A DNA stretch of 64,000 nucleotides from a virus (UHGV-1550212); one strand, 5' to 3'; positions 28,308 to 63,921 are shown, numbered from the stretch's first letter. Numbers and translations: made by a program. The notes: generated from the sequence alone by a model not told the origin.

Positions 28308-28350
28308 CTTATTTATGATTTGATGTCTTGTTATATTATTATATGTTGAT

Positions 28351-28379
28351 ATTGTACAACGCTAAGTGTCATTTTGCAC
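28351..28379 (-). promoter_or_regulatory. Sigma70-like promoter (GTGCAA-N17-TACAAT)
   Basis: Direct reading; upstream of 27738..28307. Confidence 0.45.
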
Positions 28380-48065: not shown

Positions 48066-48947
48066 TTATCGTTTGAATTTGATGAAGTGTTCAGCATCAA
48101 GGCCCTCAAATATGTACGGGTCAAGAGTTTCCCAGAAGTTTGAGTATGTCGTTGTCTTTGCAATACTTGTCTGCTTTGACAAGTTCATGTTTGGATAGCC
48201 AAGCATTGCATAGTGTCGCTCATATATGTGCATTGACGTTGCATTATGCATATAAGCGCCAAGCTTAAGACCAAGTTCATTTGCGACAAGTTCTTGCAAC
48301 AAAGTGAATGCAAACTGGTCGTTACAGAAGCCCCAAATGACATCATTGCTTCGCATATATGTTGTCAAGTACAGCTTATCACCACGAACATTGAAAACAA
48401 GATTCAATGTGCACGGCATATCTTTGCCAGTGTAGTTTGCATATTGCGGCTCATAAATGCTAATAACTGCTCGTCTTGTGCATTCATGATTTCGCAAACG
48501 TTCAATGACATCTGCAATCTGCTTGTGCCAAATTGCGCCATACTGTGAATTGACATTGACGCCATCATCACTGAACTGCTTCCAACGAGGCAAATAACGT
48601 TCAATGCATTCAACTGCAGGATTGGCTGTCATATACCATGCAAATTCTGCAGCAGCATTGAGCTTTTTCCATGGTCGTACATCAATCTTGATTTGTCGCT
48701 GTGAAGGGTCCTGAATAACTACAGACACATTCAGCAATTCTTTTGTTCGAGTCACTGTTTGTGCATTGTTGCCCTTTGATTCTACAAACTCACCTCTACA
48801 ATGAAGTTCATACAAAATTGAGCGAAATGCTTCTGTTGCAGTGTTTTCAACGATTGTCGTCTGTTGATAGCATAAATTTGACGACAATGCTTCAGCATCA
48901 TTGTACTTTATGCTGTCATTGTCATAAGGTGAATTTTTTGTGTGCAT
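48066..48947 (-). CDS. dCMP hydroxymethylase-like ThyA-fold enzyme (T4 gp42-like)
   Basis: ...DMPCTLNLVF, YMRSNDVIWGFCNDQFAF, SMHIYERHY; Asp at the position where thymidylate synthases have Asn. Start at 48947 chosen; ATG at 49088 also possible (would overlap HAD gene). Confidence 0.65.
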   Translation of the reverse strand: MHTKNSPYDNDSIKYNDAEALSSNLCYQQTTIVENTATEAFRSILYELHCRGEFVESKGNNAQTVTRTKELLNVSVVIQDPSQRQIKIDVRPWKKLNAAAEFAWYMTANPAVECIERYLPRWKQFSDDGVNVNSQYGAIWHKQIADVIERLRNHECTRRAVISIYEPQYANYTGKDMPCTLNLVFNVRGDKLYLTTYMRSNDVIWGFCNDQFAFTLLQELVANELGLKLGAYMHNATSMHIYERHYAMLGYPNMNLSKQTSIAKTTTYSNFWETLDPYIFEGLDAEHFIKFKR

Positions 48948-48972
48948 ATTTTGGGATGTTTGTTTTTTATTA

Positions 48973-50067
48973 TCATACAACGATAGTATCTCGTTTGCAA
49001 TCTGTTTTGTCAAATATTGAACAACAATACGATGCAGATTGTTCTTTGATTTCAAGAGCTTCATCATTATCAAGTGATGAAATGCCATCTATGTATGCTT
49101 TTGCATTGCCAGCAATGTCATCATTTGTTAACAACGCTGCACGACGTTCAGTGCCAAAGAAGCCAAAGCACAATTGATGTTGCAGTGCTTCACGAGAAGT
49201 CTTGTCATCAAACTCTGATTTCATGTGTTGCATAAATTCGACAATATCATCAATGTCGCATTGAGTAAAGTCAATGCACAATTTATGCATGTACTTGAAT
49301 CGTTTGTAGTCTGTTGCAAGAATTTCTGGGTGCACAATGAACAACGTCTTTTTGCTGTCTATTGGATTTGCAATGACTGATGCTTGAACATAATCGACAA
49401 GCATACCAGATTCACGAAGTTGCTCAATTGTTTTGCCAAACACATGCCCAAGCGTGTCATCAAACCACTTCAAGTATGCTTCACTGTCTTCATCTTTTGA
49501 CGCGCCAACAATGTAAATCTCATTGACTCCAAGTGCTTTGAGACGAGTATCAGACAACATAGTATTCAATTGATGCTGCACGTACAGCATTGGGCTGCTA
49601 TGCAAAACCGTTTTAACAATCTCACAAGCAATGTCCATATATGCATAGTCAAGCTTTGCAGATTTTGACACATACACTGCACGTTGCTGCAATGGCTCAA
49701 TTGCCGAGCATGTAGTTACAAAGTTGCCAACACATTCTGCTACTGCAATGTCATGCAAGTCATCTGCAATGTACACAATACTTGACAAGTCATCAAATGT
49801 TTGAACAAGTTGCTGAAGCTTTGTTTTGTAATTGCAGAGCATCAATGACTTGATGTTGCAATTACTTAGCATTGTCTTGATGAGTCGTTGACCTGCTTCA
49901 GTGCTGTCACCAGAAATGACATGCACATCGCAGTCAAACCAGTTCAGCATGTCAATTGCATGCCGAACACCATATTGCATTTGTTTTGCAAACTTACCAG
50001 ATTCATTGAACAGCATTTCACCTGACATAATGCCGTCAAAGTCACATACGATTTGAAGTCTGTCCAT
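48973..50067 (-). CDS. HAD-superfamily phosphatase domain protein with C-terminal domain
   Basis: VCDFDGIM (motif I DxDG), VHVISGDS, IADDLHD. Confidence 0.55.
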   Translation of the reverse strand: MDRLQIVCDFDGIMSGEMLFNESGKFAKQMQYGVRHAIDMLNWFDCDVHVISGDSTEAGQRLIKTMLSNCNIKSLMLCNYKTKLQQLVQTFDDLSSIVYIADDLHDIAVAECVGNFVTTCSAIEPLQQRAVYVSKSAKLDYAYMDIACEIVKTVLHSSPMLYVQHQLNTMLSDTRLKALGVNEIYIVGASKDEDSEAYLKWFDDTLGHVFGKTIEQLRESGMLVDYVQASVIANPIDSKKTLFIVHPEILATDYKRFKYMHKLCIDFTQCDIDDIVEFMQHMKSEFDDKTSREALQHQLCFGFFGTERRAALLTNDDIAGNAKAYIDGISSLDNDEALEIKEQSASYCCSIFDKTDCKRDTIVV

Positions 50068-53400: not shown

Positions 53401-54358
53401 TGCCAGACAGTTCGGGCTTTGTGACCTTTGACTTGATTTTGATTTTGTTGATGCGACCAGGATTGATGAGTGCAATCTTATCTGTTTTGATGTCATTGTC
53501 AATTGTGATTGTATGATAATGCACAAGCTGCTCAAGCGAATGCCACTCTACTACAATTCGCTTGTTGTCAATATCGATGTCAAGCAAGTTGTAGCCATGT
53601 TCTGCAGTGCCCTGTTGCGTTGCAGTGTCATTCAACAAATAGTCGCCTTCACCAAAATCTCTGACAATTGGCGAGCCGCAGTATGTCAATGTCTTGGTGC
53701 CAGAAGTCCATATTGCATGTTTGTGAATATCACCCATTGCAACAAAGTTGCTGTGAAACTGTGTTGCATCTATACGACTGTCATTGTCACCACGAACAAT
53801 GCAGTCATCAAAGTTGACGCAATTCTTTACAGGGTCATGGAACAGCTCAATAACACACATTGATGACAATGCAGCAATCTGCGATTCGTCAAGTGATGCC
53901 CAAGGCGAATATGTGCCACCAGACCACTTCTCATTTTGAGCCCATACTGCAGCAGCAAAACCAGGTGCAAGCAGTTCAACTCTTGAACTGTTGATATACT
54001 TGATTCGCTTGTCATCAATTGCAGTTACAAGCTTGTCAATGCTATCTGTCCACTGCATTTGTGAACCATCACCAGCATCAAATGTGTTATCACGTTGCTT
54101 CAAATCATGATTGCCAGCAGTAATGACAATTTGAAGCTTGTCATTGACTTCAAGCATGCCTTTGAGCAGCTTAACAAACAGCGACTCTTCAAGTGAATTG
54201 CTGTTCCACTGCTCAAACACATCGCCAACAATAAACACAAACTCAACCGACTTTGCTTTGTCAATTAGTTGTTTGTTGATGTGCTCATATTCTACGAAAC
54301 GTCGTAAATGCCCTTGTCGAACATTATATTGAATGTCTGCTATGTGAAGTGCTTTCAT
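50432..54358 (-). CDS. Mre11/SbcD nuclease fused to Rad50/SbcC ATPase in one 1308-aa polypeptide
   Basis: N-terminus HIADIQYN, FIVGDVFE, ITAGNHD, GDIHKH (calcineurin-like phosphoesterase); then VRGNNGNGKTTIF (Walker A), long coiled coil with CPVC hook, ILLIDEISG (Walker B), TLIVDHV. Confidence 0.8.
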   Translation of the reverse strand: MKALHIADIQYNVRQGHLRRFVEYEHINKQLIDKAKSVEFVFIVGDVFEQWNSNSLEESLFVKLLKGMLEVNDKLQIVITAGNHDLKQRDNTFDAGDGSQMQWTDSIDKLVTAIDDKRIKYINSSRVELLAPGFAAAVWAQNEKWSGGTYSPWASLDESQIAALSSMCVIELFHDPVKNCVNFDDCIVRGDNDSRIDATQFHSNFVAMGDIHKHAIWTSGTKTLTYCGSPIVRDFGEGDYLLNDTATQQGTAEHGYNLLDIDIDNKRIVVEWHSLEQLVHYHTITIDNDIKTDKIALINPGRINKIKIKSKVTKPELSGIVERIAQNLVSSYVVAAIDILYDSAVIDSINAVDANGDNLLQKVQTAEWLKDAALDWVNAYIERNAIVATEDAQQFVDMFKSLIDEQIDKLSFDTEVAKYVIQNVKANQFMALKDVDVSFDNLAQLTQVRGNNGNGKTTIFRLIKWLLTGFIDAGQSSAATKQNALTYFNDKLIDNESYDKLEASCVFVHVVAGQNVHYKLTRTLERRFKRGSRINADGSWRDNVSAVNETVQLVRLSDDYVVPQHEIKDTLYAIFGSIWELSRYVCINQTLLDQIIAMDSNSLNDWLLDTLGINTFVQLGNSNDAAKAALFDGLSKPALTDVAIKAELESLNTTCNELNDSLQLRQDNQREWSAKLTKARAKVEELSKRLHQIPADILTVEDATANVDSIVAKIRKVELDIAALALQDMSKLQTVKAQIEQQLTNIDNEANAAYTNVIASGSQLHNTYAELLTKQNELSAKVQKEVAHAESLYRTKLDESKLAYDAAKQRIDSVLVNLGKSYNADTRAKIDALQKQIEDINTVQNALRTEVSAAKTNIDNVIDKQKQLENDKCPVCTNDLTSGTGQAYKLWLSTELAKLRQEYAQKTEQFNENVVKIGNLKYEIEQLQAAIIDVTDSNAIIAALNTAHKAAYDMHAEKLNDLQRTVVNAQRDLDAFIAQPMATAATLLEVEAVKTQIADITNQLADIKRKAEQAKQDVLQSKSAVESELAAINAELEIAQAEYDKKASYESTLKQLEIDKTAAAFALEHAQQTQQHIVANAALQVDIDDAKQHETEANSKLLSINAEIATMQADLSANNVRIEALKKDLQASKKWNIANLVYNAYKQCTSKRGLVSYVFAAIATSLNAQLNDLLDSLNYRVFFDINDNNVLKMIDLMGSKSIRSVSQMSGMEGTFAGLAIVHLILTQRLNKVGNILLIDEISGKLSNGQIVGAEHDVNTINYQQVLMQLLTKLSAIRKTLIVDHVLQQDEFDSALTVVANTDGTSSIC

Positions 54359-54360
54359 AT

Positions 54361-54402
54361 TCTAAATGAGATTTAGATTATGTTCGAAATATATGAGAAC
54401 AT
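54361..54402 (-). promoter_or_regulatory. Leader element (copy 3): TCTAAATGAGATTTAGA + ATGTTCGAAATATATGAGAACAT
   Basis: Immediately upstream of Mre11-Rad50 ATG. Confidence 0.5.
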
Positions 54403-54417
54403 ATATTATATGTTGAT

Positions 54418-54446
54418 ATTGTACAACATATGTTATCATTTTGCAA
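54418..54446 (-). promoter_or_regulatory. Sigma70-like promoter (TTGCAA-N17-TACAAT)
   Basis: Direct reading. Confidence 0.45.
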
Positions 54447-54783
54447 GCATTTTGATGATTGCATCTATCACAGTTTCACTGAGCAAGTAGTAGACAACGC
54501 TTATCAGCAATGATATCAGTACTGCAGCTGTGATAAATTGCAACGCATTCACAATTGCACGCACAAATGTTATCTGCGTGTTGTATGCAAGCACTATGCA
54601 GCATAGCACAATAATGACACACCAGACTACAATTGCATATGCAGGCATCAATGAATTTGTCCATATGCAGTACAATACAGTAATTAGCATCAAAAATGCT
54701 ATTGCTCTGATAACTGACACAATGATGTCTATGTAAGGCTTCATTGCACGCAAATGAACTCTTGGTTTATGTTGCTTCATCAT
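54436..54783 (-). CDS. Multi-pass membrane protein (115 aa)
   Basis: ATG start; hydrophobic. Confidence 0.55.
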   Translation of the reverse strand: MMKQHKPRVHLRAMKPYIDIIVSVIRAIAFLMLITVLYCIWTNSLMPAYAIVVWCVIIVLCCIVLAYNTQITFVRAIVNALQFITAAVLISLLISVVYYLLSETVIDAIIKMLAK

Positions 54784-56012
54784 GACTTTATGTACAATTC
54801 TGCAAGTTGTCTGGTGTACAGTCGTGGATTATGATATGCTTTCCAATACGCAGTAGACTTTATTGCAGCAAGAATTTCATCATAATGTTTGACTGCTTCT
54901 GCTACAACTTCATCAAGCACGCTCAAATCTTCTACACTGACAAGCAACCATTTTTCTACAATATCAATGAACTCCTGATTGCAATTGAAGCCATACTTGT
55001 AGTTGCAAGTATCAAGTACAAGTGGAATGCAATCATTTGTCAATGCTTCAAAAAATCTACGAAGACTGAAACAATTCTCATCATATGATGGAATGCTCAA
55101 TGTAAACTTGGCAGTCTTGATGAGTTGCAAATACTCTTCGTATGGAATCAGAGGACCATTGTGCTTCCATTGATTATTGTGTCGTCTTGTCGTGTACTTG
55201 AACAAAAACTTTGAATTGTCAAGTTCACAAAGATGGTCCATGCGTAAAATGTAGTTATAGCGGTCTCTTCTGTCAGGCCAACTGTCAGTCATCGCAAACA
55301 CAAAGTCTCTTTGCTTGTCACATTTTGCTGACATACCTCTATGCTGACACATGCAATACCAATATTGCTGCGATGGGCTGAACTCAAACTTTGAATGATG
55401 CTCACTTCCATCTTTGCATTGCTGAACATAAATGTTGTCAGGCACAAAGTGAAAATAAAAGTGTCGAATTTGCAAGTCATTGATGTAGTCAAGCTTATGC
55501 TGCAATGGGTCTTCACAGAAATTGTAACACTGAATATGCTTTGCTGCTGCGTACTCAGCAACTATGAACGTGCACATCCATTGCAATGCAATATCTTCAC
55601 TCTTCAAAAAGTTTACAAGCGGCTCATTTGGATGCGCTTTGCATTCATTGAACATTTTGTACCACTTGCATTGCTCCATATCGTACTTTGATACTGTATT
55701 GCCATTAAAGAACGACACAGTGTCAATTTTGAATGCATCAAGTTGTTTATGCACAATGTCAAGTGCTTGTGCGTATGTGATTGTCTCATCAGACATTATC
55801 TGCGCAAACTTGATTGGATGCGCATGCAAATTTGCGATAGTGTCTGCCGACATTTTACGCTGTGTGTGATAATCGACATACAAAAACTGACACTTGTCTG
55901 TAAGCAATTCAAGCATTGCTACAGATTTCCATCGAATTGCTTGAAAGAAATTGAAGTGTGCAGTTTGAAAGATGAGATGCGTAGGTTTATCAGAATGAGT
56001 CAAAGTTTGCAT
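54780..56012 (-). CDS. Glycosyltransferase-like protein (GT-B type), cassette 1
   Basis: C-terminal ...IPSYDENCFSLRRFFEALTNDCIPLV (E...EA..x.P motif); paralog of 59060..60616. Confidence 0.45.
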   Translation of the reverse strand: MQTLTHSDKPTHLIFQTAHFNFFQAIRWKSVAMLELLTDKCQFLYVDYHTQRKMSADTIANLHAHPIKFAQIMSDETITYAQALDIVHKQLDAFKIDTVSFFNGNTVSKYDMEQCKWYKMFNECKAHPNEPLVNFLKSEDIALQWMCTFIVAEYAAAKHIQCYNFCEDPLQHKLDYINDLQIRHFYFHFVPDNIYVQQCKDGSEHHSKFEFSPSQQYWYCMCQHRGMSAKCDKQRDFVFAMTDSWPDRRDRYNYILRMDHLCELDNSKFLFKYTTRRHNNQWKHNGPLIPYEEYLQLIKTAKFTLSIPSYDENCFSLRRFFEALTNDCIPLVLDTCNYKYGFNCNQEFIDIVEKWLLVSVEDLSVLDEVVAEAVKHYDEILAAIKSTAYWKAYHNPRLYTRQLAELYIKS

Positions 56013-57175
56013 GGACAAATGTCGCAGTTATGTTGATGTTTGTGTTTATTTATGAAGTCATATGTCACTGCAAAAAAGTGCTTTGCAATGTCATATCGAG
56101 TTTTCAAATATGCTGCTTGGCGTTCACAAAACGCTGCATAAATGTCTGGGTGTCGTTTGAATGCAGCAATGCGTTGCTGTACTTGTTCTGCAGAATGTAC
56201 ATATGACACTTTGCTCAAATATGCATCATCTGCAAATAATCGTCTGTCTTTGTCAACTGCGCAATCAACAAAAGTTGCAATTCGTGCAACAATGGCTTCA
56301 CCAACACGATTTGGCATCAACCCATATTGCTCATATTGTTGGTCACCGATAGCAATGTGCGCTGCTGCATATGACATTGCATATGGCACACTATAAAATG
56401 GCACACTAAAATCAAATGAGCAATTTGACTGTAGTAGTTGCGTTTGTGCATCAGACAATCTACTTGTCAAGTTGCCTGTATGTTTGTGCTCACCAAGAAA
56501 ACTTGAGCGACAACCTGAATCTACATAGTATCGAATGACTTTGTTTATGCGACTGTCAGATAGCATATGCCAATCTCTTGTAGCATATATCAAGTCTACT
56601 GTTTTTGCACCAATATGACGAGGCTCTATCGCAACATTGCTGTATGTTGGCAGCATGAACAATGGCAGCCATTTGACATTGTTGAACACTGAATGTTCAT
56701 TTGACAAATTCATGCACTGGCTAAGTTCAAGTACTGGCTCATCATACACGCCATGCAGTTCAACTCTGCCTGCATGCACAAAGTTGACACGCTTAAATGG
56801 AAATCGCATATCAGTGCAAACCGTCATTCTTGCTGCAGTAGACATTCGCCACATAGCATGCAGCTTAACAACTGCTTCGGCTTGAGGTCGAGGCAGCATA
56901 TTTAGCAAATCAATCCAGCCACCCCACAAAATCCAAACATCATTTGAACAGATGTTGAATTGCAAACTCAATATGTCTTCTACTGTTGCAGCAATGATGT
57001 CATGCCCATTGATGCTTGCAAGGTGCTTTCGTTGATTTGCAATAAGAATGACTTGACTGAACGGAGACTCTGGAAATGACACAAGCGCCTTTGCAAACAA
57101 CACGGGTTCTTGTGATACCAAGTTGTTTGAGTATGGGTCGATTATGCAATCAAGCTTGTGTATGAAAAGTCTCAT
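56000..57175 (-). CDS. Possible DNA glycosyltransferase, cassette 1 partner
   Basis: ...ILWGGWID...TVCTDMRFPF; paralog of 60613..61779; resemblance to T4 beta-glucosyltransferase is from memory and weak. Confidence 0.4.
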   Translation of the reverse strand: MRLFIHKLDCIIDPYSNNLVSQEPVLFAKALVSFPESPFSQVILIANQRKHLASINGHDIIAATVEDILSLQFNICSNDVWILWGGWIDLLNMLPRPQAEAVVKLHAMWRMSTAARMTVCTDMRFPFKRVNFVHAGRVELHGVYDEPVLELSQCMNLSNEHSVFNNVKWLPLFMLPTYSNVAIEPRHIGAKTVDLIYATRDWHMLSDSRINKVIRYYVDSGCRSSFLGEHKHTGNLTSRLSDAQTQLLQSNCSFDFSVPFYSVPYAMSYAAAHIAIGDQQYEQYGLMPNRVGEAIVARIATFVDCAVDKDRRLFADDAYLSKVSYVHSAEQVQQRIAAFKRHPDIYAAFCERQAAYLKTRYDIAKHFFAVTYDFINKHKHQHNCDICPCKL

Positions 57176-57906
57176 TTTGCAGACGATTCAAAAAATTTGT
57201 AGACATCACAGTTAGCAATGTGGTCATTCCAAGCATCTTCAGAGTCTGCAACAAAGCCACAATGACAGCGTTTTGGCTGCCAAACTGGTTCAACTACTGC
57301 AGGCATTGCTTCTTCAATAGTGTTTGCAGGTTCATTATCTGCTGGCAATACTTCAACGTCTTCAACTTGTGCTGCATCTTGTTGTGCACGCTGCTCAATG
57401 ACATTGCCCTCAAAGTCAAACTGAATGCCAGCTTGTTCTGCTTTTGTACGATTGTTACGAGCTACGAACAAATACGCAAAGATGAATTCGACAAGCGCTA
57501 TGGCAAGTGACTTCAGTGCATTGACAAGAAGCATGATGCCCGTTGACAAGTGGCCGTCAAAGCTCAAAAATACGAACACGCATGTAAAGCATGACATAAA
57601 CACTGCAATCAGTGGAATGTTCTTGTATTTTGGCAACAAATCAGAGTTGACTGATGTAAGCAACACAACGAATTGATAACCTATTGCAAGCCAATAGTCG
57701 CCAAACACTGCATAGATATGCGTAGTGATGCCAATAAGAAATGTGATAGTCACAATCATAATGAGCAACACACTTGTCAGAAAGTCTGCAATAGAATTGC
57801 TGAGCTTGTCATACCAGTGTTTGTTGACAATTGATGTGTTGGCTACGCGCACTTTACTAAGTGCATCTATGCCGCTTTTGATATTTGATTGTGCTTTCAT
57901 ACACAT
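57172..57906 (-). CDS. Multi-pass membrane protein with C-terminal Cys/His cluster (244 aa)
   Basis: Hydrophobic N-terminal half; C-terminus ...RCHCGF...HIANCD. Confidence 0.6.
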   Translation of the reverse strand: MCMKAQSNIKSGIDALSKVRVANTSIVNKHWYDKLSNSIADFLTSVLLIMIVTITFLIGITTHIYAVFGDYWLAIGYQFVVLLTSVNSDLLPKYKNIPLIAVFMSCFTCVFVFLSFDGHLSTGIMLLVNALKSLAIALVEFIFAYLFVARNNRTKAEQAGIQFDFEGNVIEQRAQQDAAQVEDVEVLPADNEPANTIEEAMPAVVEPVWQPKRCHCGFVADSEDAWNDHIANCDVYKFFESSAK

Positions 57907-57912
57907 ATAATG

Positions 57913-58050
57913 TTATATCATATCTACACACAAAGCAAATGCTACTGCAAGTGCAGCCATAATTGCATATACGACTATCGATGCAATATAATCTGATTCA
58001 GGATTCCACTTATCAGGTGTGTTAAGCTTGTGATACTTGTCTCGTCTCAT
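57913..58050 (-). CDS. Small tail-anchored membrane peptide (45 aa), not in ORF track
   Basis: MRRDKYHKLNTPDKWNPESDYIASIVVYAIMAALAVAFALCVDMI; 7 nt upstream of next gene; preceded by terminator hairpin. Confidence 0.3.
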   Translation of the reverse strand: MRRDKYHKLNTPDKWNPESDYIASIVVYAIMAALAVAFALCVDMI

Positions 58051-58065
58051 CTTGAGTCAAAAAAT

Positions 58066-58109
58066 GATGGCTGCTGCTACATTTTGTGAAATCATGTGCA
58101 GCAGCCATC
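58066..58109 (-). terminator. Strong hairpin with U6 tract (terminator or attenuator)
   Basis: GATGGCTGCTGCTACAT-loop-ATGTGCAGCAGCCATC with one bulge; A6 on plus at 58059-58064. Confidence 0.55.
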
Positions 58110-58164
58110 TGGCAGGTTTCTTGCTTTGTAAAGCTTGGATAGAGGATGGATTTTATATGTTGAT

Positions 58165-58193
58165 ATTGTACAACATGCAAAATGCATTTGCAT
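58165..58193 (-). promoter_or_regulatory. Sigma70-like promoter (ATGCAA-N17-TACAAT)
   Basis: Direct reading; proximal of a tandem pair. Confidence 0.4.
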
Positions 58194-58211
58194 TTTGATA
58201 CAACATGCATT

Positions 58212-58240
58212 TTGATACAACATATATTGTCATTTTGCAC
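58212..58240 (-). promoter_or_regulatory. Sigma70-like promoter (GTGCAA-N17-TATCAA)
   Basis: Direct reading; distal of tandem pair. Confidence 0.35.
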
Positions 58241-58445
58241 AGTCTGAGGCAATCAAATCTTTGTCAAAGCATTCATCTATAATGTCTTCAATAAGATACG
58301 CTTCGACATTGTTAAGCTTCAAGATATCTACGAGTTTTGCTTTGATATCGCAAGCTAATGCAGATTCAACTGTATGCAATATGACTGATGATGCGACATG
58401 CTTGTCTGTCATCATTTGTAATTGCTGTGGTGTTACTCTACTCAT
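58230..58445 (-). CDS. Hypothetical protein (71 aa)
   Basis: ATG start, ATGA overlap with kinase gene. Confidence 0.45.
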   Translation of the reverse strand: MSRVTPQQLQMMTDKHVASSVILHTVESALACDIKAKLVDILKLNNVEAYLIEDIIDECFDKDLIASDCAK

Positions 58446-59014
58446 GCGCCAAGTTCAGCTAAGCATTTTAGCACATTGTCTTGCAGACTTACATTGTTGT
58501 CGATTTCGACAATATGCAATGGTGAGTTCTTTCGCCACTCATCATATGCAGCAATCATTTTATTGCGTTTGTTGACATCAATGTTGACATCGCCACAAAA
58601 GTTATCAACAAAATCTGGTGCAACATCACGCTTGCATAAGAACACTATATGCGGCAATGTTGCAAGCTTCTTTTCATATGCTTCAAAGAATGCTTGATGC
58701 TTATCAGTGTGCAACTCTTTGTAAAGCGTTGTGTTAAAGATTTGATGTGTGATGAACGAACGGTCACACAAAAATGTTGCTTTGCCAAAGCCTTTAGAGT
58801 CATTTCCAATGAACTCTAAGAAGAAGCGCCAATCATAAAAGAACGCTTCATTGAGGTCCCAAGGTTCGGGCATTGGGTCATCACCTGACTCATGCTGTTG
58901 CCACCAAGAACGAGATGTTCGTTTGCAATTGATAAACCATGGGCGCCACTTCATCAATTCATTGATGAGTGTTGTTTTGCCTGAAGCTTCTACACCTTCA
59001 AATATCGCTATCAT
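58442..59014 (-). CDS. P-loop nucleotide kinase (thymidylate kinase-like)
   Basis: IAIFEGVEASGKTTLI (Walker A). Confidence 0.65.
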   Translation of the reverse strand: MIAIFEGVEASGKTTLINELMKWRPWFINCKRTSRSWWQQHESGDDPMPEPWDLNEAFFYDWRFFLEFIGNDSKGFGKATFLCDRSFITHQIFNTTLYKELHTDKHQAFFEAYEKKLATLPHIVFLCKRDVAPDFVDNFCGDVNIDVNKRNKMIAAYDEWRKNSPLHIVEIDNNVSLQDNVLKCLAELGA

Positions 59015-59039
59015 TGTGTATTATGTTTGATTTTTGATT

Positions 59040-59068
59040 ACAGTACAACGTAGTTATGCTCATTGCAC
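59040..59068 (-). promoter_or_regulatory. Weak sigma70-like promoter (GTGCAA-N17-TACTGT)
   Basis: Direct reading. Confidence 0.3.
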
Positions 59069-60616
59069 TTCTACGAATGGCTCTTTCAACACAAAGCTGT
59101 CACCATTGCAACATGCGGCTGAGCCATCGTCTGCATCAAGTGCACATGACATATCAGACTTGCAGAACTTGCAATATAAACATGACCATGCATGACTCAT
59201 GAAGTTGTTTGCTTCACAAATTGCGCAACGCTCATGCATAAGTGCATTGTCGCAATTATCACAAGACTTCTTGATTGGCACAGTTTTGTTGATGTATGCA
59301 AGATGCAATGCAATATCATACACAAAGTCACCCGTATATTGCTGAATGAAATCAGTATGCCACAACTCTTTTAACAATTGTGCATGTCTATATGGCTGAA
59401 CAATGTCTTCAAGATGCTGCAAGTCATCATCGCTAACCATGAGCTTCTTAATGACAAATTGTTTGAACTGTGGCCATCTGTCAAACATATAGAGTTTGCA
59501 TGAGTTGTGCACAAGTGGAACACAGCCAAGCACAATGCTTTCACAGAATCTACGCAAACTAAAACAGTTTGCATCATATGACGGCACAATCAATGTGAAT
59601 CTGCTATGCTTGATGAGTTCAAGGTATGTGTCATATGGCAGTAGCTTATCTGACAATTGCTGTTGTTGTTTGTCTCTGCTGAAAAATCTGAACACAATAC
59701 CCTTGTCAATTGCATCTTGATTGTGCAGATGCATGAGTTTGTTGATGAGTTCTGTGCGTTCAGTTTTGTCTCGCCAAGTATTCGTCAATGCAAATGCAAA
59801 ATTCAGTCGCTTGTCATCAAACGTCGCTTCAATATCATTCCAAGTTTTGTCATGCAAATACCAGTATTGCTGTGATGGGCACCATCCATAATATGCAATA
59901 GCATCTTGTTCTGCTGTAACGTCATACACATATGCAGAATTGTATTCAAGGCCAAGCCTTTTGACGTTGTTGCAGTCATGAAAGTACCAATGCTGCACTT
60001 TGAATATCTTTGATGCACTGAATGCGCTTTCATATGGCCCTGAATAGCGATAGTCAATGTAATTGAGCTTGTGCTGCAATGGGTCTTCGACAAAGTTGTT
60101 TATGACTGTGCCTTGTTGTTTGCCCTTAGTCTTGCGAGCATTCAATGCAACATTGTATTGCATGATGACTGACAGCATCTCATACACTACATACATGAGT
60201 GCTTTGTAGACTGAGCCTGCTGCGTCAATTAGTGGCAAATCACGTTTGACTGATGTAGCGCCAAATGTCTTGCAATATGCAGAAAATGTGTCAAGTTCTG
60301 CTTGCTGAAATGAATTGCATGCACCATTGAATATGTTGAATGTTGCAATGTAGCTCATATTGCAAGATGTCATTGACATATCAAGACGCTTCATAATGTC
60401 GACAATGCGACATTGAGCAAAATCTGACACATCAACATATTTGACATGATGGCCTGATGTAGTCAAGCCATCTGCGACATCTTTCATCTGTGGCACAAAG
60501 CCTACAACAATGAATAAGTCATCTTTGTTTGCTCGTTCAAACATTGCTGCACTTTTCCAAGTCAATGAATTGAAAAAGTCTATGTAGCCAGTTTGAGTGA
60601 TTATATGCGTTCTCAT
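59060..60616 (-). CDS. Glycosyltransferase-like protein (GT-B type), cassette 2
   Basis: ...VPSYDANCFSLRRFCESIVLGCVPLV; N-terminus also parallels 54780..56012. Confidence 0.45.
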   Translation of the reverse strand: MRTHIITQTGYIDFFNSLTWKSAAMFERANKDDLFIVVGFVPQMKDVADGLTTSGHHVKYVDVSDFAQCRIVDIMKRLDMSMTSCNMSYIATFNIFNGACNSFQQAELDTFSAYCKTFGATSVKRDLPLIDAAGSVYKALMYVVYEMLSVIMQYNVALNARKTKGKQQGTVINNFVEDPLQHKLNYIDYRYSGPYESAFSASKIFKVQHWYFHDCNNVKRLGLEYNSAYVYDVTAEQDAIAYYGWCPSQQYWYLHDKTWNDIEATFDDKRLNFAFALTNTWRDKTERTELINKLMHLHNQDAIDKGIVFRFFSRDKQQQQLSDKLLPYDTYLELIKHSRFTLIVPSYDANCFSLRRFCESIVLGCVPLVHNSCKLYMFDRWPQFKQFVIKKLMVSDDDLQHLEDIVQPYRHAQLLKELWHTDFIQQYTGDFVYDIALHLAYINKTVPIKKSCDNCDNALMHERCAICEANNFMSHAWSCLYCKFCKSDMSCALDADDGSAACCNGDSFVLKEPFVEVQ

Positions 60617-61779
60617 GATTTGAATGTTTGTTCAAGAATTGTATAGCACTGTGCAATCATTGTTGCAAGAGCTTTTTGCTGAAGCTGTTTGCAATTTGAA
60701 GATATTGTGTATTGCTGACGCTCAGTTGTAGTACTGCTTAATGTCGCAAATTGCAGGTACTCATCTTCTGACATGATATCAGCAAACAATGCAGACAATT
60801 CATAATCTACAATGACATTTGAGCAGTTTGCAAGTACGCCTTCAACCCATCGATTTGGCAACAAACATGCTTGCACATACAATGAATCGCCGACTACAAG
60901 ATTGCACATTGACTGCGACATTACATACGTCATCATGTCATATGGCACTTTGTACTTAAGTGTGAAGTTTTGTGCTGCTGACTTAATTGCTTGCAGAATT
61001 GTGTCATCAAGATATGATGTTATAAGGCAAGTATTGTATGCCTGCATAATGTAACGCTCAATCACGCTTCTACGATACTCGTCAAGATATGTGAAACCTG
61101 CACAACTTGCACAACATGCATATTGCTGCTTTATGTCAGCAAAGCTACACACATGCGCTTCAATTGCATTTTGCATTGTTGCTTGTCGTTTGAGCAATCT
61201 TGGCTCTTTAATGCATTGAAGCTTCAATGCATTGACTGCTGCAATGATTTGCAATGGCACAAACACGCATTGAGACTCATCAAGCCAAGCATACTTGAGA
61301 TTTTTATGTTGACACAGATGCGTAATGTTGTCTTTTTGTGATTCTAAGTACTCTTTGTAATTATGCAATCGCTTTGTCAATGTGCACTCTTTGTCAAAAT
61401 CAAATCGCAAATCAGTTGTTAGTGTAAATTTGCGAACATTTGACAAGCACCATGCTTTGAATGCATTCCACAGAACATCTTGCTGAAATTCTGAACAATG
61501 TTCAAGAGCAGCCTTTGAGCCCTGCCAGAATATTGCGCAATCATCTGATTTTGCACACTTCAGCATATCTTGCCATGCATGTATGCTATTGATGATATGC
61601 ACTTTATTATGCACAAGCTCATTAAGTGTTGCATGCTTGTTCTCAGGGTCGCCAAACACGTATACTGTATCAAACATTGTTTGAACAAACCCTGCAAATG
61701 CAATGGGTTCTGTATGTTTAAGATGCTGTATGTCTGAACGCACACATGTGTCAAATTTCAAAATGAAGAGTTTGCTCAT
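60613..61779 (-). CDS. Possible DNA glycosyltransferase, cassette 2 partner
   Basis: ...IFWQGSKAA...TLTTDLRFDF; paralog of 56000..57175. Confidence 0.4.
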   Translation of the reverse strand: MSKLFILKFDTCVRSDIQHLKHTEPIAFAGFVQTMFDTVYVFGDPENKHATLNELVHNKVHIINSIHAWQDMLKCAKSDDCAIFWQGSKAALEHCSEFQQDVLWNAFKAWCLSNVRKFTLTTDLRFDFDKECTLTKRLHNYKEYLESQKDNITHLCQHKNLKYAWLDESQCVFVPLQIIAAVNALKLQCIKEPRLLKRQATMQNAIEAHVCSFADIKQQYACCASCAGFTYLDEYRRSVIERYIMQAYNTCLITSYLDDTILQAIKSAAQNFTLKYKVPYDMMTYVMSQSMCNLVVGDSLYVQACLLPNRWVEGVLANCSNVIVDYELSALFADIMSEDEYLQFATLSSTTTERQQYTISSNCKQLQQKALATMIAQCYTILEQTFKS

Positions 61780-62416
61780 ATGCTTTGCAATTATCTATTA
61801 CATGTTGATATTGTACTTCATCTATGATGTGATTTGCAATGACACCATATGACGTGTCATACATTGGCATCTTCTCATATGACAATGCTGCGTCAAGATT
61901 GCATATCACATAATTGCAATGCACAATGTCATCTACATTGTCACTAACTGCTACGATATTGACGCAATTTGCAAGAAATGCATCATCAAAGTCTACTTGA
62001 TTGCATGCAACCTCATAATCTGCAGCACTTCTTGGGTACCAATATAACTCAATGCCGGCACTACTAAGTAGTCGCAAGCCATCTATGTGATGATACAAGT
62101 CAACAAAATGCACTTGCTTAACGCCTGCTTGCAAAATAAGCTTTGCGCAATCAATGCATGGACTATATGTTACATATAGCACTGCGTCATTTGCAGTCGC
62201 ATTGCCATATTTGCACAGCTTCATCAATGCATTTGATTCTGCATGCAAAACTTCTTTGTTGGTTTTGATGCCTGCTGATGTTGCATGTTCACAACAATTT
62301 GACATGCCAGTTGGCATGCCATTGTAGCCATCTGAAATTATGCAGCCATCTTTTACAAGCAATGCGCCGACTTTTGCTCGCTGAGCATGTGAATTTAATG
62401 ACCAGAGCTCAGCCAT
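61751..62416 (-). CDS. dCMP deaminase
   Basis: HAESNAL (H-A-E zinc motif), SPCIDCAKLI (PCxxC); start chosen at MAELW (62416), ATG at 62476 also in frame. Confidence 0.75.
   Translation of the reverse strand: MAELWSLNSHAQRAKVGALLVKDGCIISDGYNGMPTGMSNCCEHATSAGIKTNKEVLHAESNALMKLCKYGNATANDAVLYVTYSPCIDCAKLILQAGVKQVHFVDLYHHIDGLRLLSSAGIELYWYPRSAADYEVACNQVDFDDAFLANCVNIVAVSDNVDDIVHCNYVICNLDAALSYEKMPMYDTSYGVIANHIIDEVQYQHVIDNCKAYEQTLHFEI
61810..61839 (-). promoter_or_regulatory. Sigma70-like promoter (TTGCAA-N18-TACAAT) inside 3' end of deaminase gene
   Basis: Direct reading. Confidence 0.4.
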
Positions 62417-62480
62417 TTTAAGATATATGAGATTTCGTTGAAACCACTTTGTTTCAGACCAAGTTAGCCATTTCATATGC

Positions 62481-63863
62481 TTATAGTGAATTTATGATTT
62501 TGCTGAAGTCTGTTACAATGTTTGAATGCAACTCAATGAGATAGTTGTCTTGCAATGTCATAAGCTCATCAAGTTCATCTACACTTAATGACTTGAAGAC
62601 TTCTGCACAATGCTTGGCATTTTTGATGTGTGCGACTTTATGATACTTGATAAAGTCAGGACACACACAATTATTCACGTACATACAAGGCAAGCCTGCA
62701 AGCATTGATTCAGTTGCTCTGAATGTAATTGCGTTGCATTGTTTCATATTCTCTTCACACACAATGTATGCAAAATCGAACTGTGACAAGTATGTTAACA
62801 TGTCAAAATACTTGATTGTGCCATCATAGACATGTGGCATATCAATGTCAATATTGCCGACAACATGAGTTTCGATGTCTGCGCAGCCAAGCAAATCAAT
62901 GACTTCTTGTTTGCGTTCAGCACACATGTCATTCCAAGCCACCATCGGCATTGCAGTAGTCAACTTGCCTGATTGCAATTTTGCTAAACGTTTTTCATTA
63001 TGTGATGCATACAATGGAATGCCTTCAAGTCTTGCATGCTGAATTGCGTTGACATTGATTTCTGTCAACATTGACAACGCATTATGTATGTTCTGCGCTT
63101 GTGTGACAACTGTCATCTTTTTGCAGTGCAATCTAAAGTTTGCAATGTGTGGCACGAGTCGTAAATCATACCATAGCCATACAATGTCGCCCTTCCATGA
63201 TTCAATGAGCTGCTTGTGCTGTTTGTAGATGACTGACTGACTCATCGAGTCATTCATTGCTGAGCATACAATGTACAACACACCATATTTGTCAATTGAG
63301 TGCTGCACATAGTCAGCTGAGCAGCATAGCACATCTTTGTCGAAAAGTTTTGGGTCATGCACTTCTGCATCATCTACAATAAGATGCGCCTTGTATTGAT
63401 GCCGCTTTGTTACATCAATGATGCGAGCAATTGCGAAACATTCTCTGCTTTGAATGTCTGTCTTGTCTTGTCGCAGCTGGTCTTGTGTTCGTACTGGATA
63501 CGCAGGTTTCAGTATTACAGGCACAAAATGTGTTTTTGCAGAATATGGTGCATCTACTGCAGCAAACTCCGCGTTGCATCGTTGTGAATGCAGATGTCGT
63601 GCATATGATTGCAACAATTCATGAATCATTGCAATATACTCTTCCAATTCAAACAGCTCGTGTTCAGTTGCGTTTGTTATGTCAACTACGACAGTTTGTC
63701 GCACAATTGGATACACACAAATAACGTAATCATTATATGGCAGTGGAATGCCTATAAATGTTGAGCATCTGTTTCGAAGCCATGCAATGCAATCAACATC
63801 AAACACAATTTCATATTGCTGCTGCAAAGCATTTAATTGCGCTATAATCAAATCATTGTGCAT
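62481..63863 (-). CDS. Glycosyltransferase-like protein (GT-B type), 460 aa
   Basis: ...ITFRATESMLAGLPCMYV (E...G.P motif). Confidence 0.4.
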   Translation of the reverse strand: MHNDLIIAQLNALQQQYEIVFDVDCIAWLRNRCSTFIGIPLPYNDYVICVYPIVRQTVVVDITNATEHELFELEEYIAMIHELLQSYARHLHSQRCNAEFAAVDAPYSAKTHFVPVILKPAYPVRTQDQLRQDKTDIQSRECFAIARIIDVTKRHQYKAHLIVDDAEVHDPKLFDKDVLCCSADYVQHSIDKYGVLYIVCSAMNDSMSQSVIYKQHKQLIESWKGDIVWLWYDLRLVPHIANFRLHCKKMTVVTQAQNIHNALSMLTEINVNAIQHARLEGIPLYASHNEKRLAKLQSGKLTTAMPMVAWNDMCAERKQEVIDLLGCADIETHVVGNIDIDMPHVYDGTIKYFDMLTYLSQFDFAYIVCEENMKQCNAITFRATESMLAGLPCMYVNNCVCPDFIKYHKVAHIKNAKHCAEVFKSLSVDELDELMTLQDNYLIELHSNIVTDFSKIINSL

Positions 63864-63892
63864 GTTCGTATTGTTTTATCATATATGAATAT

Positions 63893-63921
63893 ATTGTACA
63901 ACATGTATTGAGCTTTTGCAC
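63893..63921 (-). promoter_or_regulatory. Sigma70-like promoter (GTGCAA-N17-TACAAT), proximal
   Basis: Direct reading. Confidence 0.45.

What the first reader, a model, noticed from the sequence alone, without database searches (positions are those of the whole stretch)
54780..61779. Two-gene glycosyltransferase cassette present twice in tandem
54780..56012 + 56000..57175 and 59060..60616 + 60613..61779 are diverged copies of the same two-gene unit. Partner 1 has the ...PSYD(E/A)NCFSLRRF.E... motif; partner 2 has ...(I/L)(F/L)W.G...T(D)(L/M)RF(D/P)F. Each pair overlaps by a few codons, and a membrane protein, two small ORFs and the kinase gene lie between the copies. Duplication and divergence of a modification cassette could give sequential or alternative sugar transfers.
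Basis: seen in the sequence. Interest (0 to 1): 0.65.

Follow-up and report, generated by a model that had tools for sequence, protein, structure and literature searches.

The report
Duplicated phage DNA sugar-transferase gene pairs
An uncultured gut phage, distantly related to T4, carries two old copies of a pair of sugar-transferase genes (possibly with a fifth such gene) beside the genes that make hydroxymethyl-cytosine. It therefore probably coats its DNA with sugars to escape bacterial nucleases, which is a new variant of a well-known strategy.

Summary
A1 (54780-56012) and A2 (59060-60616) are homologous (30% identity, E=6e-48). B1 (56000-57175) and B2 (60613-61779) are homologous (24%, E=1e-15). 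Both quoted motifs are present, and each B gene overlaps the A gene after it.

The context points to DNA as the target:
- a dCMP-hydroxymethylase-type thymidylate-synthase homologue;
- a true ThyA;
- a dCMP deaminase;
- a thymidylate-kinase-like kinase.

The paralogy is ancient, not a recent tandem copy. Relatives at about 45% identity keep both modules, one lineage lacks B2, and B2 groups with Sphingomonas phage PAU genes. A 460-aa gene upstream is possibly a third BGT-like enzyme.

Most likely, B enzymes glycosylate 5-hmC in DNA and A enzymes extend the sugar. No step has been tested biochemically. This is a new variant of a known kind and is moderately interesting.

The parts
54780..56012 (-). 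A1: family-A GT-B glycosyltransferase (410 aa). Its ATG overlaps the end of B1 by 13 nt.
56000..57175 (-). B1: homologue of T4 DNA beta-glucosyltransferase (391 aa) with a C-terminal HxxxHxCDxCP tail.
   Evidence: The family-B profile hits PDB 1BGT at E=9e-10. hhalign against a BGT-family alignment gives Prob 98.5%, E=1.8e-15 over the full length. PHROG 7922 'beta-glucosyltransferase' matches at 5e-8. D122, R209, Y281, R290 and E293 align with BGT D100, R195, Y261, R269 and E272.
57172..57906 (-). Conserved membrane protein (244 aa) with several hydrophobic segments, an acidic linker and a C-terminal CxCG...H...C motif. It always lies directly upstream of B1-type genes.
   Evidence: Hydropathy analysis. 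Alignment and HMM hits directly upstream of B in L001, L002, L003, L015, L018, L019 and L020. No Pfam, PHROG or NCBIfam family.
58153..58172 (-). Copy of the 20-nt motif TGTACAATATCAACATATAA, promoter-like, about 250 nt upstream of the membrane-protein/B1/A1 unit.
   Evidence: Four matches in the window, all on the coding strand; 0.02 expected by chance. Repeat families D2/D3.
58230..58445 (-). Small ORF (71 aa) overlapping the kinase stop by 4 nt; function unknown.
   Evidence: No family hits.
58442..59014 (-). P-loop kinase similar to thymidylate kinase (190 aa). Inferred to phosphorylate the modified dNMP.
   Evidence: Only the P-loop region matches detectably: PHROG 761 thymidylate kinase 1e-5 over residues 1-30; Pfam AAA_28, Thymidylate_kin and dNK sub-threshold. 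Orthologues lie downstream of A2-type genes in L001, L003, L018 and L024. Analogous thymidylate-kinase-like genes sit in the RB69, DLP3 and RL38J1 glycosylation clusters (PMC13326640) and next to a GT in PAU.
59060..60616 (-). A2: family-A GT-B glycosyltransferase (518 aa) with a Cys-rich C-terminal extension of about 75 aa.
   Evidence: 30% identical to A1, E=6e-48. Pfam Exostosin_GT47 at 26.3 bits, below the 33.4 cut-off. The A2 clade has 99% bootstrap support.
60613..61779 (-). B2: second homologue of T4 beta-glucosyltransferase (388 aa). Its stop overlaps the A2 ATG (ATGA).
   Evidence: 24% identical to B1, E=1e-15. It keeps TDLRF, Y, and NRxxE. It groups with PAU gp179/gp180 at 100% bootstrap.
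61798..61817 (-). Copy of the 20-nt promoter-like motif (2 mismatches), 18 nt upstream of the B2 start and inside the 3' end of the deaminase gene.
61751..62476 (-). dCMP deaminase (241 aa), directly upstream of B2 and overlapping it by 29 nt.
   Evidence: Pfam dCMP_cyt_deam_1 at 6e-21; PHROG 174 at 1e-43. The same position is kept in L001, L003 and L024.
62481..63863 (-). 'C': 460-aa protein, possibly a third BGT-like transferase with an N-terminal extension.
   Evidence: hhalign vs the BGT family: Prob 64%, E=6.4e-5, 247 columns. WLWYDLRLVP aligns with BGT LFTDIRLPF, and ITFRATES aligns with ITLRVWET. hhalign vs family B: E=1.3e-3. An ORF in L022 matches both the B and C profiles. A profile search against PDB was negative, so this is inconclusive.
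54436..54783 (-). Small, very hydrophobic protein (115 aa) overlapping the A1 stop by 4 nt; last gene of the unit.
   Evidence: An orthologue lies downstream of A in L021.
48066..49088 (-). Thymidylate-synthase homologue with the dCMP-hydroxymethylase signature, the probable source of 5-hm-dCMP. The true start is probably the ATG at 48947.
   Evidence: Pfam Thymidylat_synt at 84 bits. Best PDB hit is CMP hydroxymethylase MilA at 1.4e-22; T4 dCMP hydroxymethylase scores 2e-11. In the alignment with E. coli ThyA, N177 is replaced by D, D169 is kept, and the L143 position is D. Criteria are from PMC13326640.
43784..44842 (-). Bona fide thymidylate synthase (352 aa, with insertions).
   Evidence: Pfam at 256 bits. 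D169 and N177 are retained.

Best explanation
The four genes are part of a DNA-hypermodification island in an uncultured, distantly T4-related phage, probably from the human gut.

Proposed pathway:
1. The thymidylate-synthase homologue at 48066-49088 makes 5-hydroxymethyl-dCMP.
2. The thymidylate-kinase-like kinase helps convert it toward the triphosphate, and it is incorporated during replication.
3. After replication, the B enzymes (B1, B2, and perhaps the 460-aa 'C' protein) transfer a first sugar from a nucleotide-sugar (UDP-sugar by analogy) to the hydroxymethyl group of 5-hmC. These are inverting GT-B enzymes homologous to T4 beta-glucosyltransferase.
4. The A enzyme translated from the overlapping downstream gene, a different and unclassified GT-B family, then adds a further sugar to that sugar.

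Two ancient B-A modules would therefore give two different di- or oligosaccharide decorations, or one longer or branched one. The result would protect the DNA from restriction and CRISPR nucleases.

Shown here: homology of the pairs; BGT homology and conserved catalytic and UDP-binding residues in B; GT-B fold of A; the hydroxymethylase signature; conserved gene order.

Inferred: DNA as the acceptor for A, the order of action, the sugar identity, and the biological role.
For: Family B:
- Profile vs PDB 1BGT, E=9e-10.
- hhalign vs six diverse phage BGTs: Prob 98.5%, E=1.8e-15, covering residues 1-375.
- BGT D100, R195, Y261, R269 and E272 align with conserved B residues.

Family A:
- Confident GT-B model.
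- The second-best viral structural neighbour is annotated as a DNA beta-glucosyltransferase.
- Invariant Asp, Lys, Arg and Glu across 50 distant relatives.

Pathway context in the window:
- dCMP-hydroxymethylase-type TS homologue.
- ThyA.
- dCMP deaminase and thymidylate-kinase-like kinase.
These are the same components as in T4 and in the RB69, DLP3 and RL38J1 glycosylation clusters (PMC13326640).

Gene order:
- B directly upstream of A, overlapping or adjacent, in at least 10 independent loci: window x2, L001 x2, L002, L003, L016, L018, L019, L020, L022, L024.
- Both paralogue pairs are retained across relatives at about 45% identity, which argues for non-redundant functions.

Precedents:
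- In phage PAU, whose DNA is reported to be heavily modified (PMC7824862), two tandem B-like genes sit beside a TS homologue and dTDP-sugar genes.
- In CC31-like phages a second-sugar transferase gene overlaps b-gt by 4 nt.
- Successive GTs build di- and trisaccharides on modified cytosine (10.1101/2023.12.21.572611; PMC13326640).
Against: - There is no biochemical evidence of any kind; the phage is known only from metagenomes.
- The B1 structure model was poor (pLDDT 59).
- BGT R191 is not conserved in B.
- All four proteins are neutral to acidic (pI 6.1-7.6), which gives no sign of a strongly basic DNA-binding surface.
- One lineage has A2 without B2, so A2 does not strictly need its neighbouring B.
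- No nucleotide-sugar synthesis genes and no dCTPase were seen in the window.
- A strictly conserved membrane protein sits upstream of B1, which is not expected for a soluble DNA-modifying enzyme.
Confidence: 0.6

Rival explanations
1. All four enzymes (and C) act directly on the modified base as alternative first-sugar transferases. They would differ in anomeric configuration, sugar or sequence context, as T4 alpha-GT and beta-GT do. No enzyme would extend a sugar chain, and the DNA would carry a mixture of monosaccharides.
Against: The tight B-then-A order, with overlapping stop and start codons, is kept in at least 10 loci. That fits coupled, sequential partners better than independent alternatives. 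Phages with three GTs that have been analysed make oligosaccharide chains (PMC13326640). [quoted passage not shown] Five parallel base-directed GTs would be unprecedented.
Confidence: 0.2
2. The cassette does not modify DNA. Together with the conserved membrane protein, it would glycosylate a host envelope glycan or lipid (for superinfection exclusion) or virion proteins and fibres.
For: A strongly conserved polytopic membrane protein always precedes B1, and a small hydrophobic protein follows A1. The nearest Pfam families for A (GT47, Glyco_trans_1_2, RXYLT1_C) act on glycans. Foldseek PDB hits are small-molecule and glycan GT-B enzymes. The proteins are not basic. The phage encodes head-fibre-like proteins.
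Against: B is a full-length homologue of BGT and keeps its catalytic Asp. That family is described as found exclusively in phages (PMC13216743). The genes are embedded among dCMP deaminase, a thymidylate-kinase-like kinase, SbcCD and the hydroxymethylase, and this neighbourhood is conserved. They share a promoter-like motif with the SbcCD gene.
Confidence: 0.12
3. A is a non-catalytic or regulatory partner that forms a heterodimer with its neighbouring B (giving stability, DNA targeting or donor selection). Each pair would then be a single two-subunit enzyme.
For: Translational coupling through overlapping stop and start codons, and conserved adjacency.
Against: A keeps an invariant Asp, Lys, Arg and Glu set and a nucleotide-binding motif of the SLRRFxEA...CxPL type across 50 distant relatives. 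This argues that it is an active GT-B. A occurs without any B in L003 (the A2 copy), L005 and L017.
Confidence: 0.05

Closest known systems
T4 DNA beta-glucosyltransferase (CAZy GT63; PDB 1BGT/1C3J)
   Same: B1 and B2 are full-length homologues (hhalign 98.5%). They share the TD(I/M/L)R(L/F)PF catalytic-Asp motif and the Y...(L/N)R..E UDP-binding motif. In T4 the gene also lies next to the dCMP hydroxymethylase gene.
   Different: Only about 20% identity, and below Pfam detection. BGT R191 is not conserved. B1-type proteins carry a Cys/His tail. There are two, possibly three, deep paralogues per genome. The host phage lineage is not Straboviridae; its nearest portal proteins are from Chryseobacterium phage MA9V and Sphingomonas phage PAU at 31-33% identity.
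Two-gene sugar-transferase pairs of T6/CC31-type phages: beta-glucosyl-HMC-alpha-glucosyltransferase ('TAGT', PF20691) next to alpha-GT or beta-GT
   Same: Two adjacent, overlapping transferase genes (4-nt overlap in CC31, KMB26 and AB1I1M-1). One enzyme primes 5-hmC and the other adds a second sugar, giving gentiobiosyl-hmC (PMC13216743).
   Different: TAGT has a GT-A fold (PMC13216743), whereas family A here is GT-B and unrelated in sequence. Here the gene order is BGT-like first, and the pair exists twice.
Cytosine glycosylation clusters of RB69, DLP3 and RL38J1 (PMC13326640)
   Same: A cluster of two or three GT-B genes, a thymidylate-kinase-like kinase and a TS homologue. Sugars are added one after another on DNA, giving mono- to tri-glycosylated cytidine.
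   Different: Those TS homologues carry D169N and make 5-hydroxy-dCMP. Here D169 is kept, which is the hydroxymethylase type. Those GTs resemble GT4 enzymes (BshA, PimA, sucrose-phosphate synthase), and tblastn of A1 finds no match in GenBank phages. No arabinose or UDP-sugar synthesis genes were seen here.
Sphingomonas phage PAU gp179-gp183 region (uncharacterised)
   Same: Two tandem B-like genes, gp179 and gp180 (E=3.5e-15 and 4.8e-21 against the B profile), lie beside a TS homologue (gp182). Elsewhere in the same ~17-kb region are a thymidylate kinase (gp172) and an annotated glycosyltransferase (gp171). B2 groups with these genes. PAU DNA is reported to be extensively modified (PMC7824862).
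   Different: There is no detectable family-A gene. PAU carries dTDP-rhamnose pathway genes. The chemistry is unknown.
Methyltransferase/TET-associated phage DNA glycosyltransferase gene clusters (Pyle et al., bioRxiv 10.1101/2023.12.21.572611)
   Same: BGT-like GT-B enzymes and successive transferases build mono-, di- and trisaccharides on 5-hmC.
   Different: In those clusters 5-hmC is made on DNA by a methyltransferase plus a TET dioxygenase. Here it is made before replication by a TS homologue. Those secondary transferases are GT-A.
Exostosin/GT47 and Glyco_trans_1_2 families (nearest Pfam models to family A)
   Same: The C-terminal nucleotide-sugar-binding half of a GT-B fold. 28 of 50 distant family-A relatives give weak GT47 hits.
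   Different: Scores are below Pfam's gathering cut-off (22-27 bits vs 33.4). The N-terminal domain is not matched.

Membership tests
T4 beta-glucosyltransferase family (GT63), tested for B1/B2 | Significant full-length sequence homology to T4 BGT | tested here: met
   Profile vs PDB 1BGT, E=9e-10. hhalign vs six BGTs: Prob 98.5%, E=1.8e-15, residues 1-375 vs 1-342. PHROG 7922 at 5e-8 for B1. A single-sequence Pfam scan found nothing.
T4 beta-glucosyltransferase family (GT63), tested for B1/B2 | Catalytic base Asp100 in the TDIRLPF loop (role recalled from the BGT structural literature) | tested here: met
   BGT T99-D100-I-R102 aligns with the invariant T121-D122-x-R124 of family B.
T4 beta-glucosyltransferase family (GT63), tested for B1/B2 | UDP-binding residues R191, R195, Y261, R269, E272 (roles recalled from the literature; positions verified by counting) | tested here: inconclusive
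   The R195, Y261, R269 and E272 equivalents are conserved (R/K209, Y281, R290, E293). R191 aligns with Leu.
T4 beta-glucosyltransferase family (GT63), tested for B1/B2 | GT-B two-domain fold | tested here: inconclusive
   The AF2 model of B1 was poor (pLDDT 59; only residues 1-120 were confident). The fold is inferred from homology only.
T4 beta-glucosyltransferase family (GT63), tested for B1/B2 | Transfers glucose from UDP-Glc to 5-hmC in duplex DNA by base flipping | not testable with these tools
   Requires an enzyme assay on 5-hmC DNA.
GT-B glycosyltransferase superfamily, tested for A1/A2 | Two Rossmann-like domains with the nucleotide-sugar site in the C-terminal domain | tested here: met
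Exostosin GT47 (PF03016), tested for A1/A2 | Score at or above Pfam's gathering threshold (33.4 bits) | tested here: not met
   22.4 and 26.3 bits, C-terminal part only. Relatives also fall below the cut-off.
T4 beta-glucosyltransferase family (GT63), tested for A1/A2 | Sequence homology to BGT | tested here: not met
T2/T6 beta-glucosyl-HMC-alpha-glucosyltransferase (TAGT, PF20691), tested for A1/A2 | GT-A fold (PMC13216743) | tested here: not met
   A1 is GT-B. No Pfam hit to PF20691. A may work like TAGT (as a second-sugar transferase) but is not a member.
dCMP hydroxymethylase type of thymidylate-synthase homologue, tested for 48066-49088 | N177D (dCMP specificity), L143D/E (hydroxymethyl product), and D169 not replaced by Asn (which would indicate a 5-hydroxy-dCMP synthase), per PMC13326640 | tested here: met
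   The ...RSNDVIWGFCNDQ... segment aligned to E. coli ThyA ...RSCDVFLGLPFNI... gives D169=D and N177=D. KDMPC aligned with MilA IDVAC gives L143=D. The MAFFT gap placement near L143 is ambiguous.
BGT-like transferase, tested for the 460-aa protein 62481-63863 | Detectable homology to BGT or family B, with the catalytic Asp and R..E motifs | tested here: inconclusive
   hhalign vs BGT: Prob 64%, E=6.4e-5. hhalign vs family B: E=1.3e-3. Both motifs are invariant in three orthologues. An L022 ORF hits both profiles. The PDB profile search was negative.

The most novel reading that the evidence does not exclude
Family A is a previously unrecognised family of DNA-glycan transferases. Together with two or three BGT-like 'primer' enzymes, it would build an oligosaccharide of three or more sugars, or a branched one, on 5-hydroxymethylcytosine in a lineage of human-gut phages. 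The strictly conserved membrane zinc-finger protein upstream of B1 would be a functional partner, for example tethering DNA glycosylation to the membrane or supplying the sugar donor. That would be a new organisational principle for phage DNA hypermodification.
Probability: 0.3. Interest if true: 0.65.

Novelty: new variant of a known kind. Interest (0 to 1): 0.45.

Why it matters
Sugar-coated cytosine is the classic phage counter-defence against restriction enzymes and CRISPR. It also determines which type IV restriction systems and glycosylases can attack a phage.

This island predicts that an uncultured gut-phage lineage makes 5-hmC before replication, as T4 does, and then decorates it with four or five GT-B enzymes. 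That would be more GT genes than in the characterised clusters compared here.

One of the two enzyme families has no characterised member. Only 398 relatives were found among 1.84 billion representative proteins.

If the prediction is confirmed, it would add:
- a new DNA-acting glycosyltransferase family;
- possibly a new DNA glycan;
- enzymes that may be useful for selective labelling of 5-hmC.

If the transferases turn out to be ordinary glucosyltransferases, this is simply a divergent member of the T4 paradigm.

Tried and rejected
- Megablast of 54400-62500 and tblastn of A1 against 50,697 GenBank phages: no match. No cultured close relative exists.
- tblastn of B1: only weak hits, to PAU gp180, RsoM2USA and an Enterococcus phage GT.
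- Single-sequence PDB searches for B1, A2 and the 460-aa protein: nothing meaningful.
- Family-A profile against PDB: only a marginal hit to the Pasteurella sialyltransferase (E=1.6e-3). I do not build on it.
- A vs B profile comparison: not significant. I rejected the idea that A and B are demonstrably one family.
- A vs BGT by hhalign: not significant.
- Foldseek against PDB did not reproduce BGT as the top hit for A.
- B1 structure prediction failed to reach usable confidence, so no fold search was run on it. No co-folding tool was available.
- The afdb50 fold library was unavailable.
- The sigma-70 promoter and terminator scan showed no enrichment over shuffles.
- NCBIfam gave nothing for A, B, C or the membrane protein.
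- I considered 5-hydroxycytosine (RB69-type) and 5-hmU as the modified base. 5-hydroxycytosine is rejected because D169 is retained. 5-hmU is rejected because position 177 is Asp rather than Asn.
- IMG/VR holds only one contig of this phage (175.6 kb, about 98% identity).

Full report
**1. The observation**

All genes in 42-64 kb lie on the minus strand. The four ORFs exist as described.
- A1 is 54780-56012 (410 aa) and B1 is 56000-57175 (391 aa).
- A2 is 59060-60616 (518 aa) and B2 is 60613-61779 (388 aa).
- A1 and A2 share 30% identity, E=6e-48.
- B1 and B2 share 24% identity, E=1e-15.
- A and B are not detectably similar to each other.

The quoted motifs are present and sit in the most conserved blocks of each family.

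Stop and start codons overlap at several junctions:
- B1/A1 by 13 nt;
- B2/A2 by 4 nt;
- membrane-protein gene/B1 by 4 nt;
- deaminase/B2 by 29 nt.

At the DNA level, only a 99-nt stretch encoding the PSYDxNCFSLRRF block is still alignable, at 71% identity.

**2. The genome**

The window belongs to a phage of the T4 superfamily. It has a T4-type portal, a prohead protease, a baseplate protein, a split family-B DNA polymerase and a fused SbcD-SbcC nuclease.

It is far from any cultured phage. The best portal matches are Chryseobacterium phage MA9V-2 and Sphingomonas phage PAU at 31-33% identity. Megablast finds nothing.

Nearly identical or related contigs come only from metagenomes, including human-gut assemblies. 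One is a 175.6-kb IMG/VR contig.

**3. Family B**

A nine-sequence profile hits T4 DNA beta-glucosyltransferase (1BGT) at E=9e-10.

I built a BGT-family alignment from six diverse phages: T4, AB1I1M-1, KMB26, CC31, VPE25 and a metagenomic jumbo phage. hhalign against it gives 98.5% probability and E=1.8e-15 over essentially the whole length.

Several BGT residues align with conserved B positions:
- D100, in TDIRLPF, aligns with the invariant D122, in TDMRFPF.
- R195, Y261, R269 and E272 also align with conserved positions.
- R191 does not.

The AF2 model of B1 was too poor to use (pLDDT 59). B1 and B2 are therefore divergent members of the BGT lineage.

**4. Family A**

With a 19-sequence alignment, AF2 gives a confident model (pLDDT 89.4) with a GT-B fold.

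Structural searches give a mixed picture:
- Foldseek against viral models returns an uncharacterised myovirus protein and a protein annotated as DNA beta-glucosyltransferase as the two best hits.
- Foldseek against PDB returns generic GT1 enzymes and UDP-GlcNAc epimerases instead.

Sequence methods place A nearest to Exostosin_GT47 and Glyco_trans_1_2, but below threshold.

An exhaustive profile search of 1.84 billion representative proteins finds only 398 relatives. Their alignment keeps an invariant Asp (the EDP motif after a beta-strand), Lys, Arg and Glu. That is the pattern expected of an active, metal-independent GT-B.

A is a real glycosyltransferase of an unclassified family. Its acceptor is not determined by these data.

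**5. Why DNA, and which base**

The window encodes a bona fide ThyA (43784-44842) and a second TS homologue (48066-49088).

Aligned with E. coli ThyA, the second homologue has Asp at position 177, which indicates dCMP specificity. It has Asp at the L143 position and retains Asp169. By the criteria in PMC13326640, this is the 5-hydroxymethyl-dCMP synthase type, not the 5-hydroxy-dCMP synthase type.

A dCMP deaminase directly precedes B2, and a kinase weakly similar to thymidylate kinase follows A2. T4 has the same set of functions: hydroxymethylase, ThyA, dCMP deaminase and a dNMP kinase. The RB69, DLP3 and RL38J1 clusters likewise combine several GTs, a thymidylate-kinase-like kinase and a TS homologue.

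In PAU, two tandem B-like genes (gp179 and gp180) sit next to a TS homologue and dTDP-sugar genes. PAU DNA is reported to be heavily modified.

**6. Evolution and architecture**

Relatives sharing about 45% identity keep both modules and the same order:
- Module 1: membrane protein, B1, A1, (small hydrophobic ORF), SbcCD, HAD-domain protein, TS homologue.
- Module 2: (C), dCMP deaminase, B2, A2, kinase.

B lies directly upstream of A in at least 10 loci, including distant ones (L016, L022). The DNA between the two modules is variable, and the window has the most compact version.

Neighbour-joining trees give these results:
- The A2 clade has 99% bootstrap support and contains members from three lineages.
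- The A1 grouping has weak bootstrap support (45-47%), but it also contains members from the same three lineages.
- B2 groups with PAU gp179/gp180 at 100% bootstrap, apart from B1.

L003 and L004 carry A2 but no B2. The paralogy is therefore ancient. Whether the pair duplicated as a unit is not shown.

The 460-aa protein upstream of the deaminase is conserved in relatives. It carries BGT-like DLRLxP and FRxTE motifs. hhalign against BGT gives 64% probability, E=6.4e-5. An ORF in L022 hits both the B and C profiles. It may be a third BGT-like enzyme.

**7. Mechanism**

Best-supported reading (confidence about 0.6):
1. 5-hm-dCMP is made by the TS homologue and phosphorylated.
2. It is incorporated during replication.
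3. BGT-like B enzymes transfer a first sugar to 5-hmC in DNA.
4. The translationally coupled A enzymes extend it.

Two retained modules would imply two distinct glycan outcomes.

Precedents are the CC31- and T6-type pairs, where a second-sugar transferase gene overlaps the primary GT gene. That partner is GT-A, however. Successive on-DNA glycosylation in RB69, DLP3, RL38J1 and the TET-associated clusters is a further precedent.

Rivals:
- all enzymes act in parallel on the base (0.2);
- a non-DNA acceptor linked to the conserved membrane protein (0.12);
- A is a non-catalytic partner of B (0.05).

The donor sugar is unknown. No nucleotide-sugar genes were found in the window apart from a KdsC-like HAD domain protein next to the TS homologue.

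**8. Verdict**

The system is a new variant of the well-known phage DNA-glycosylation strategy.

Its notable features are:
- an uncharacterised GT-B family;
- an unusually large number of transferases;
- a conserved membrane partner.

Nothing here contradicts established principles, and there is no biochemical proof. Interest is moderate.

Noticed in passing
window 28339-28358, 54406-54425, 58153-58172, 61798-61817 (all minus strand); weaker copy 63877-63900: A 20-nt motif, TGTACAATATCAACATATAA, occurs three times exactly and once with 2 mismatches, always on the coding strand (0.02 expected by chance). It lies 18-50 nt upstream of the starts of B2, SbcCD and the 27738-28307 gene, and about 250 nt upstream of the membrane-protein/B1/A1 unit. 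It is probably a phage promoter or regulatory site that splits the island into separate transcription units. It is conserved in the ~98%-identical IMG/VR contig but not found exactly in more distant relatives.
   Followed up: partly
window 62481-63863 (-): The 460-aa protein upstream of the dCMP deaminase carries WLWYDLRLVP and ITFRATES motifs that mirror BGT's LFTDIRLPF and ITLRVWET. hhalign vs BGT gives Prob 64%, E=6.4e-5. It is possibly a third BGT-like transferase with an N-terminal extension of about 110-130 aa, which is absent from the L003 orthologue.
   Followed up: partly
window 57172-57906 (-); L001 16000-16740, L002 599-1357, L003 8084-8845, L015 596-1423: The membrane protein upstream of B1 appears more conserved than the transferases themselves. 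It has long identical blocks such as ADFLTS, LLTSVNSDLLPKY, FVFLSFDGHLS and VEFIFAYLF.ARNNR.KAE, and it ends in a CxCG...H...C zinc-finger-like motif. It has no family assignment, and its link to the glycosyltransferases is unexplained.
   Followed up: partly
window 48973-50067 (-): This 364-aa protein has an N-terminal KdsC-type HAD phosphatase domain (NCBIfam 1e-9; PDB 2p9j 1e-4) and an unassigned C-terminal half of about 220 aa. It always lies directly upstream of the hydroxymethylase-type TS homologue (also in L018, L020 and L003). It could be a sugar-phosphate or nucleotide phosphatase belonging to the modification pathway.
   Followed up: partly
window 48066-49088 (-): The mechanical ORF of the TS homologue overlaps the upstream gene by 116 nt, and its first ~47 residues have no counterpart in the L003 orthologue. 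The real start is probably the ATG at 48947.
   Followed up: partly
window 59060-59290 (A2 C-terminus), 56000-56045 (B1 C-terminus), 57172-57260 (membrane-protein C-terminus); L003 18400-18525: Several unrelated proteins of the island end in Cys/His-rich tails: A2 has about 75 aa with about 12 Cys, B1 ends in HKHQHNCDICPCKL, the membrane protein has its own tail, and the TS homologue of L003 has one too. A shared zinc-binding or interaction module is possible.
   Followed up: no
window 58172-58215 (-): Two tandem copies of ATGTTGTATCAAAATGC lie immediately upstream of the promoter-like motif at 58153-58172.
   Followed up: no
window 21138-22430 and 24724-26229 (-): The family-B DNA polymerase is split into two ORFs, one with the exonuclease/N-terminal part and one with the polymerase part. 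They are separated by about 2.3 kb containing other ORFs.
   Followed up: no
window 50432-54358 (-): A single 1308-aa protein fuses an SbcD-like metallophosphatase domain to an SbcC/Rad50-like ATPase (the gp47 and gp46 functions of T4). The fusion is conserved in L002, L003, L018 and L020.
   Followed up: no
L008 (Sphingomonas phage PAU 125045-141893): PAU gp179 and gp180 are tandem B-like (BGT-like) genes annotated only as hypothetical. They are followed by gp181 (410 aa), a TS homologue (gp182), gp183 and the dTDP-rhamnose pathway genes (gp185-187). This is a probable uncharacterised DNA-glycosylation cluster.
   Followed up: partly
L003/L004 2278-3561: In this related lineage the A2-type gene follows the dCMP deaminase directly, with no B2 gene. 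B2 is therefore dispensable or was lost there.
   Followed up: yes
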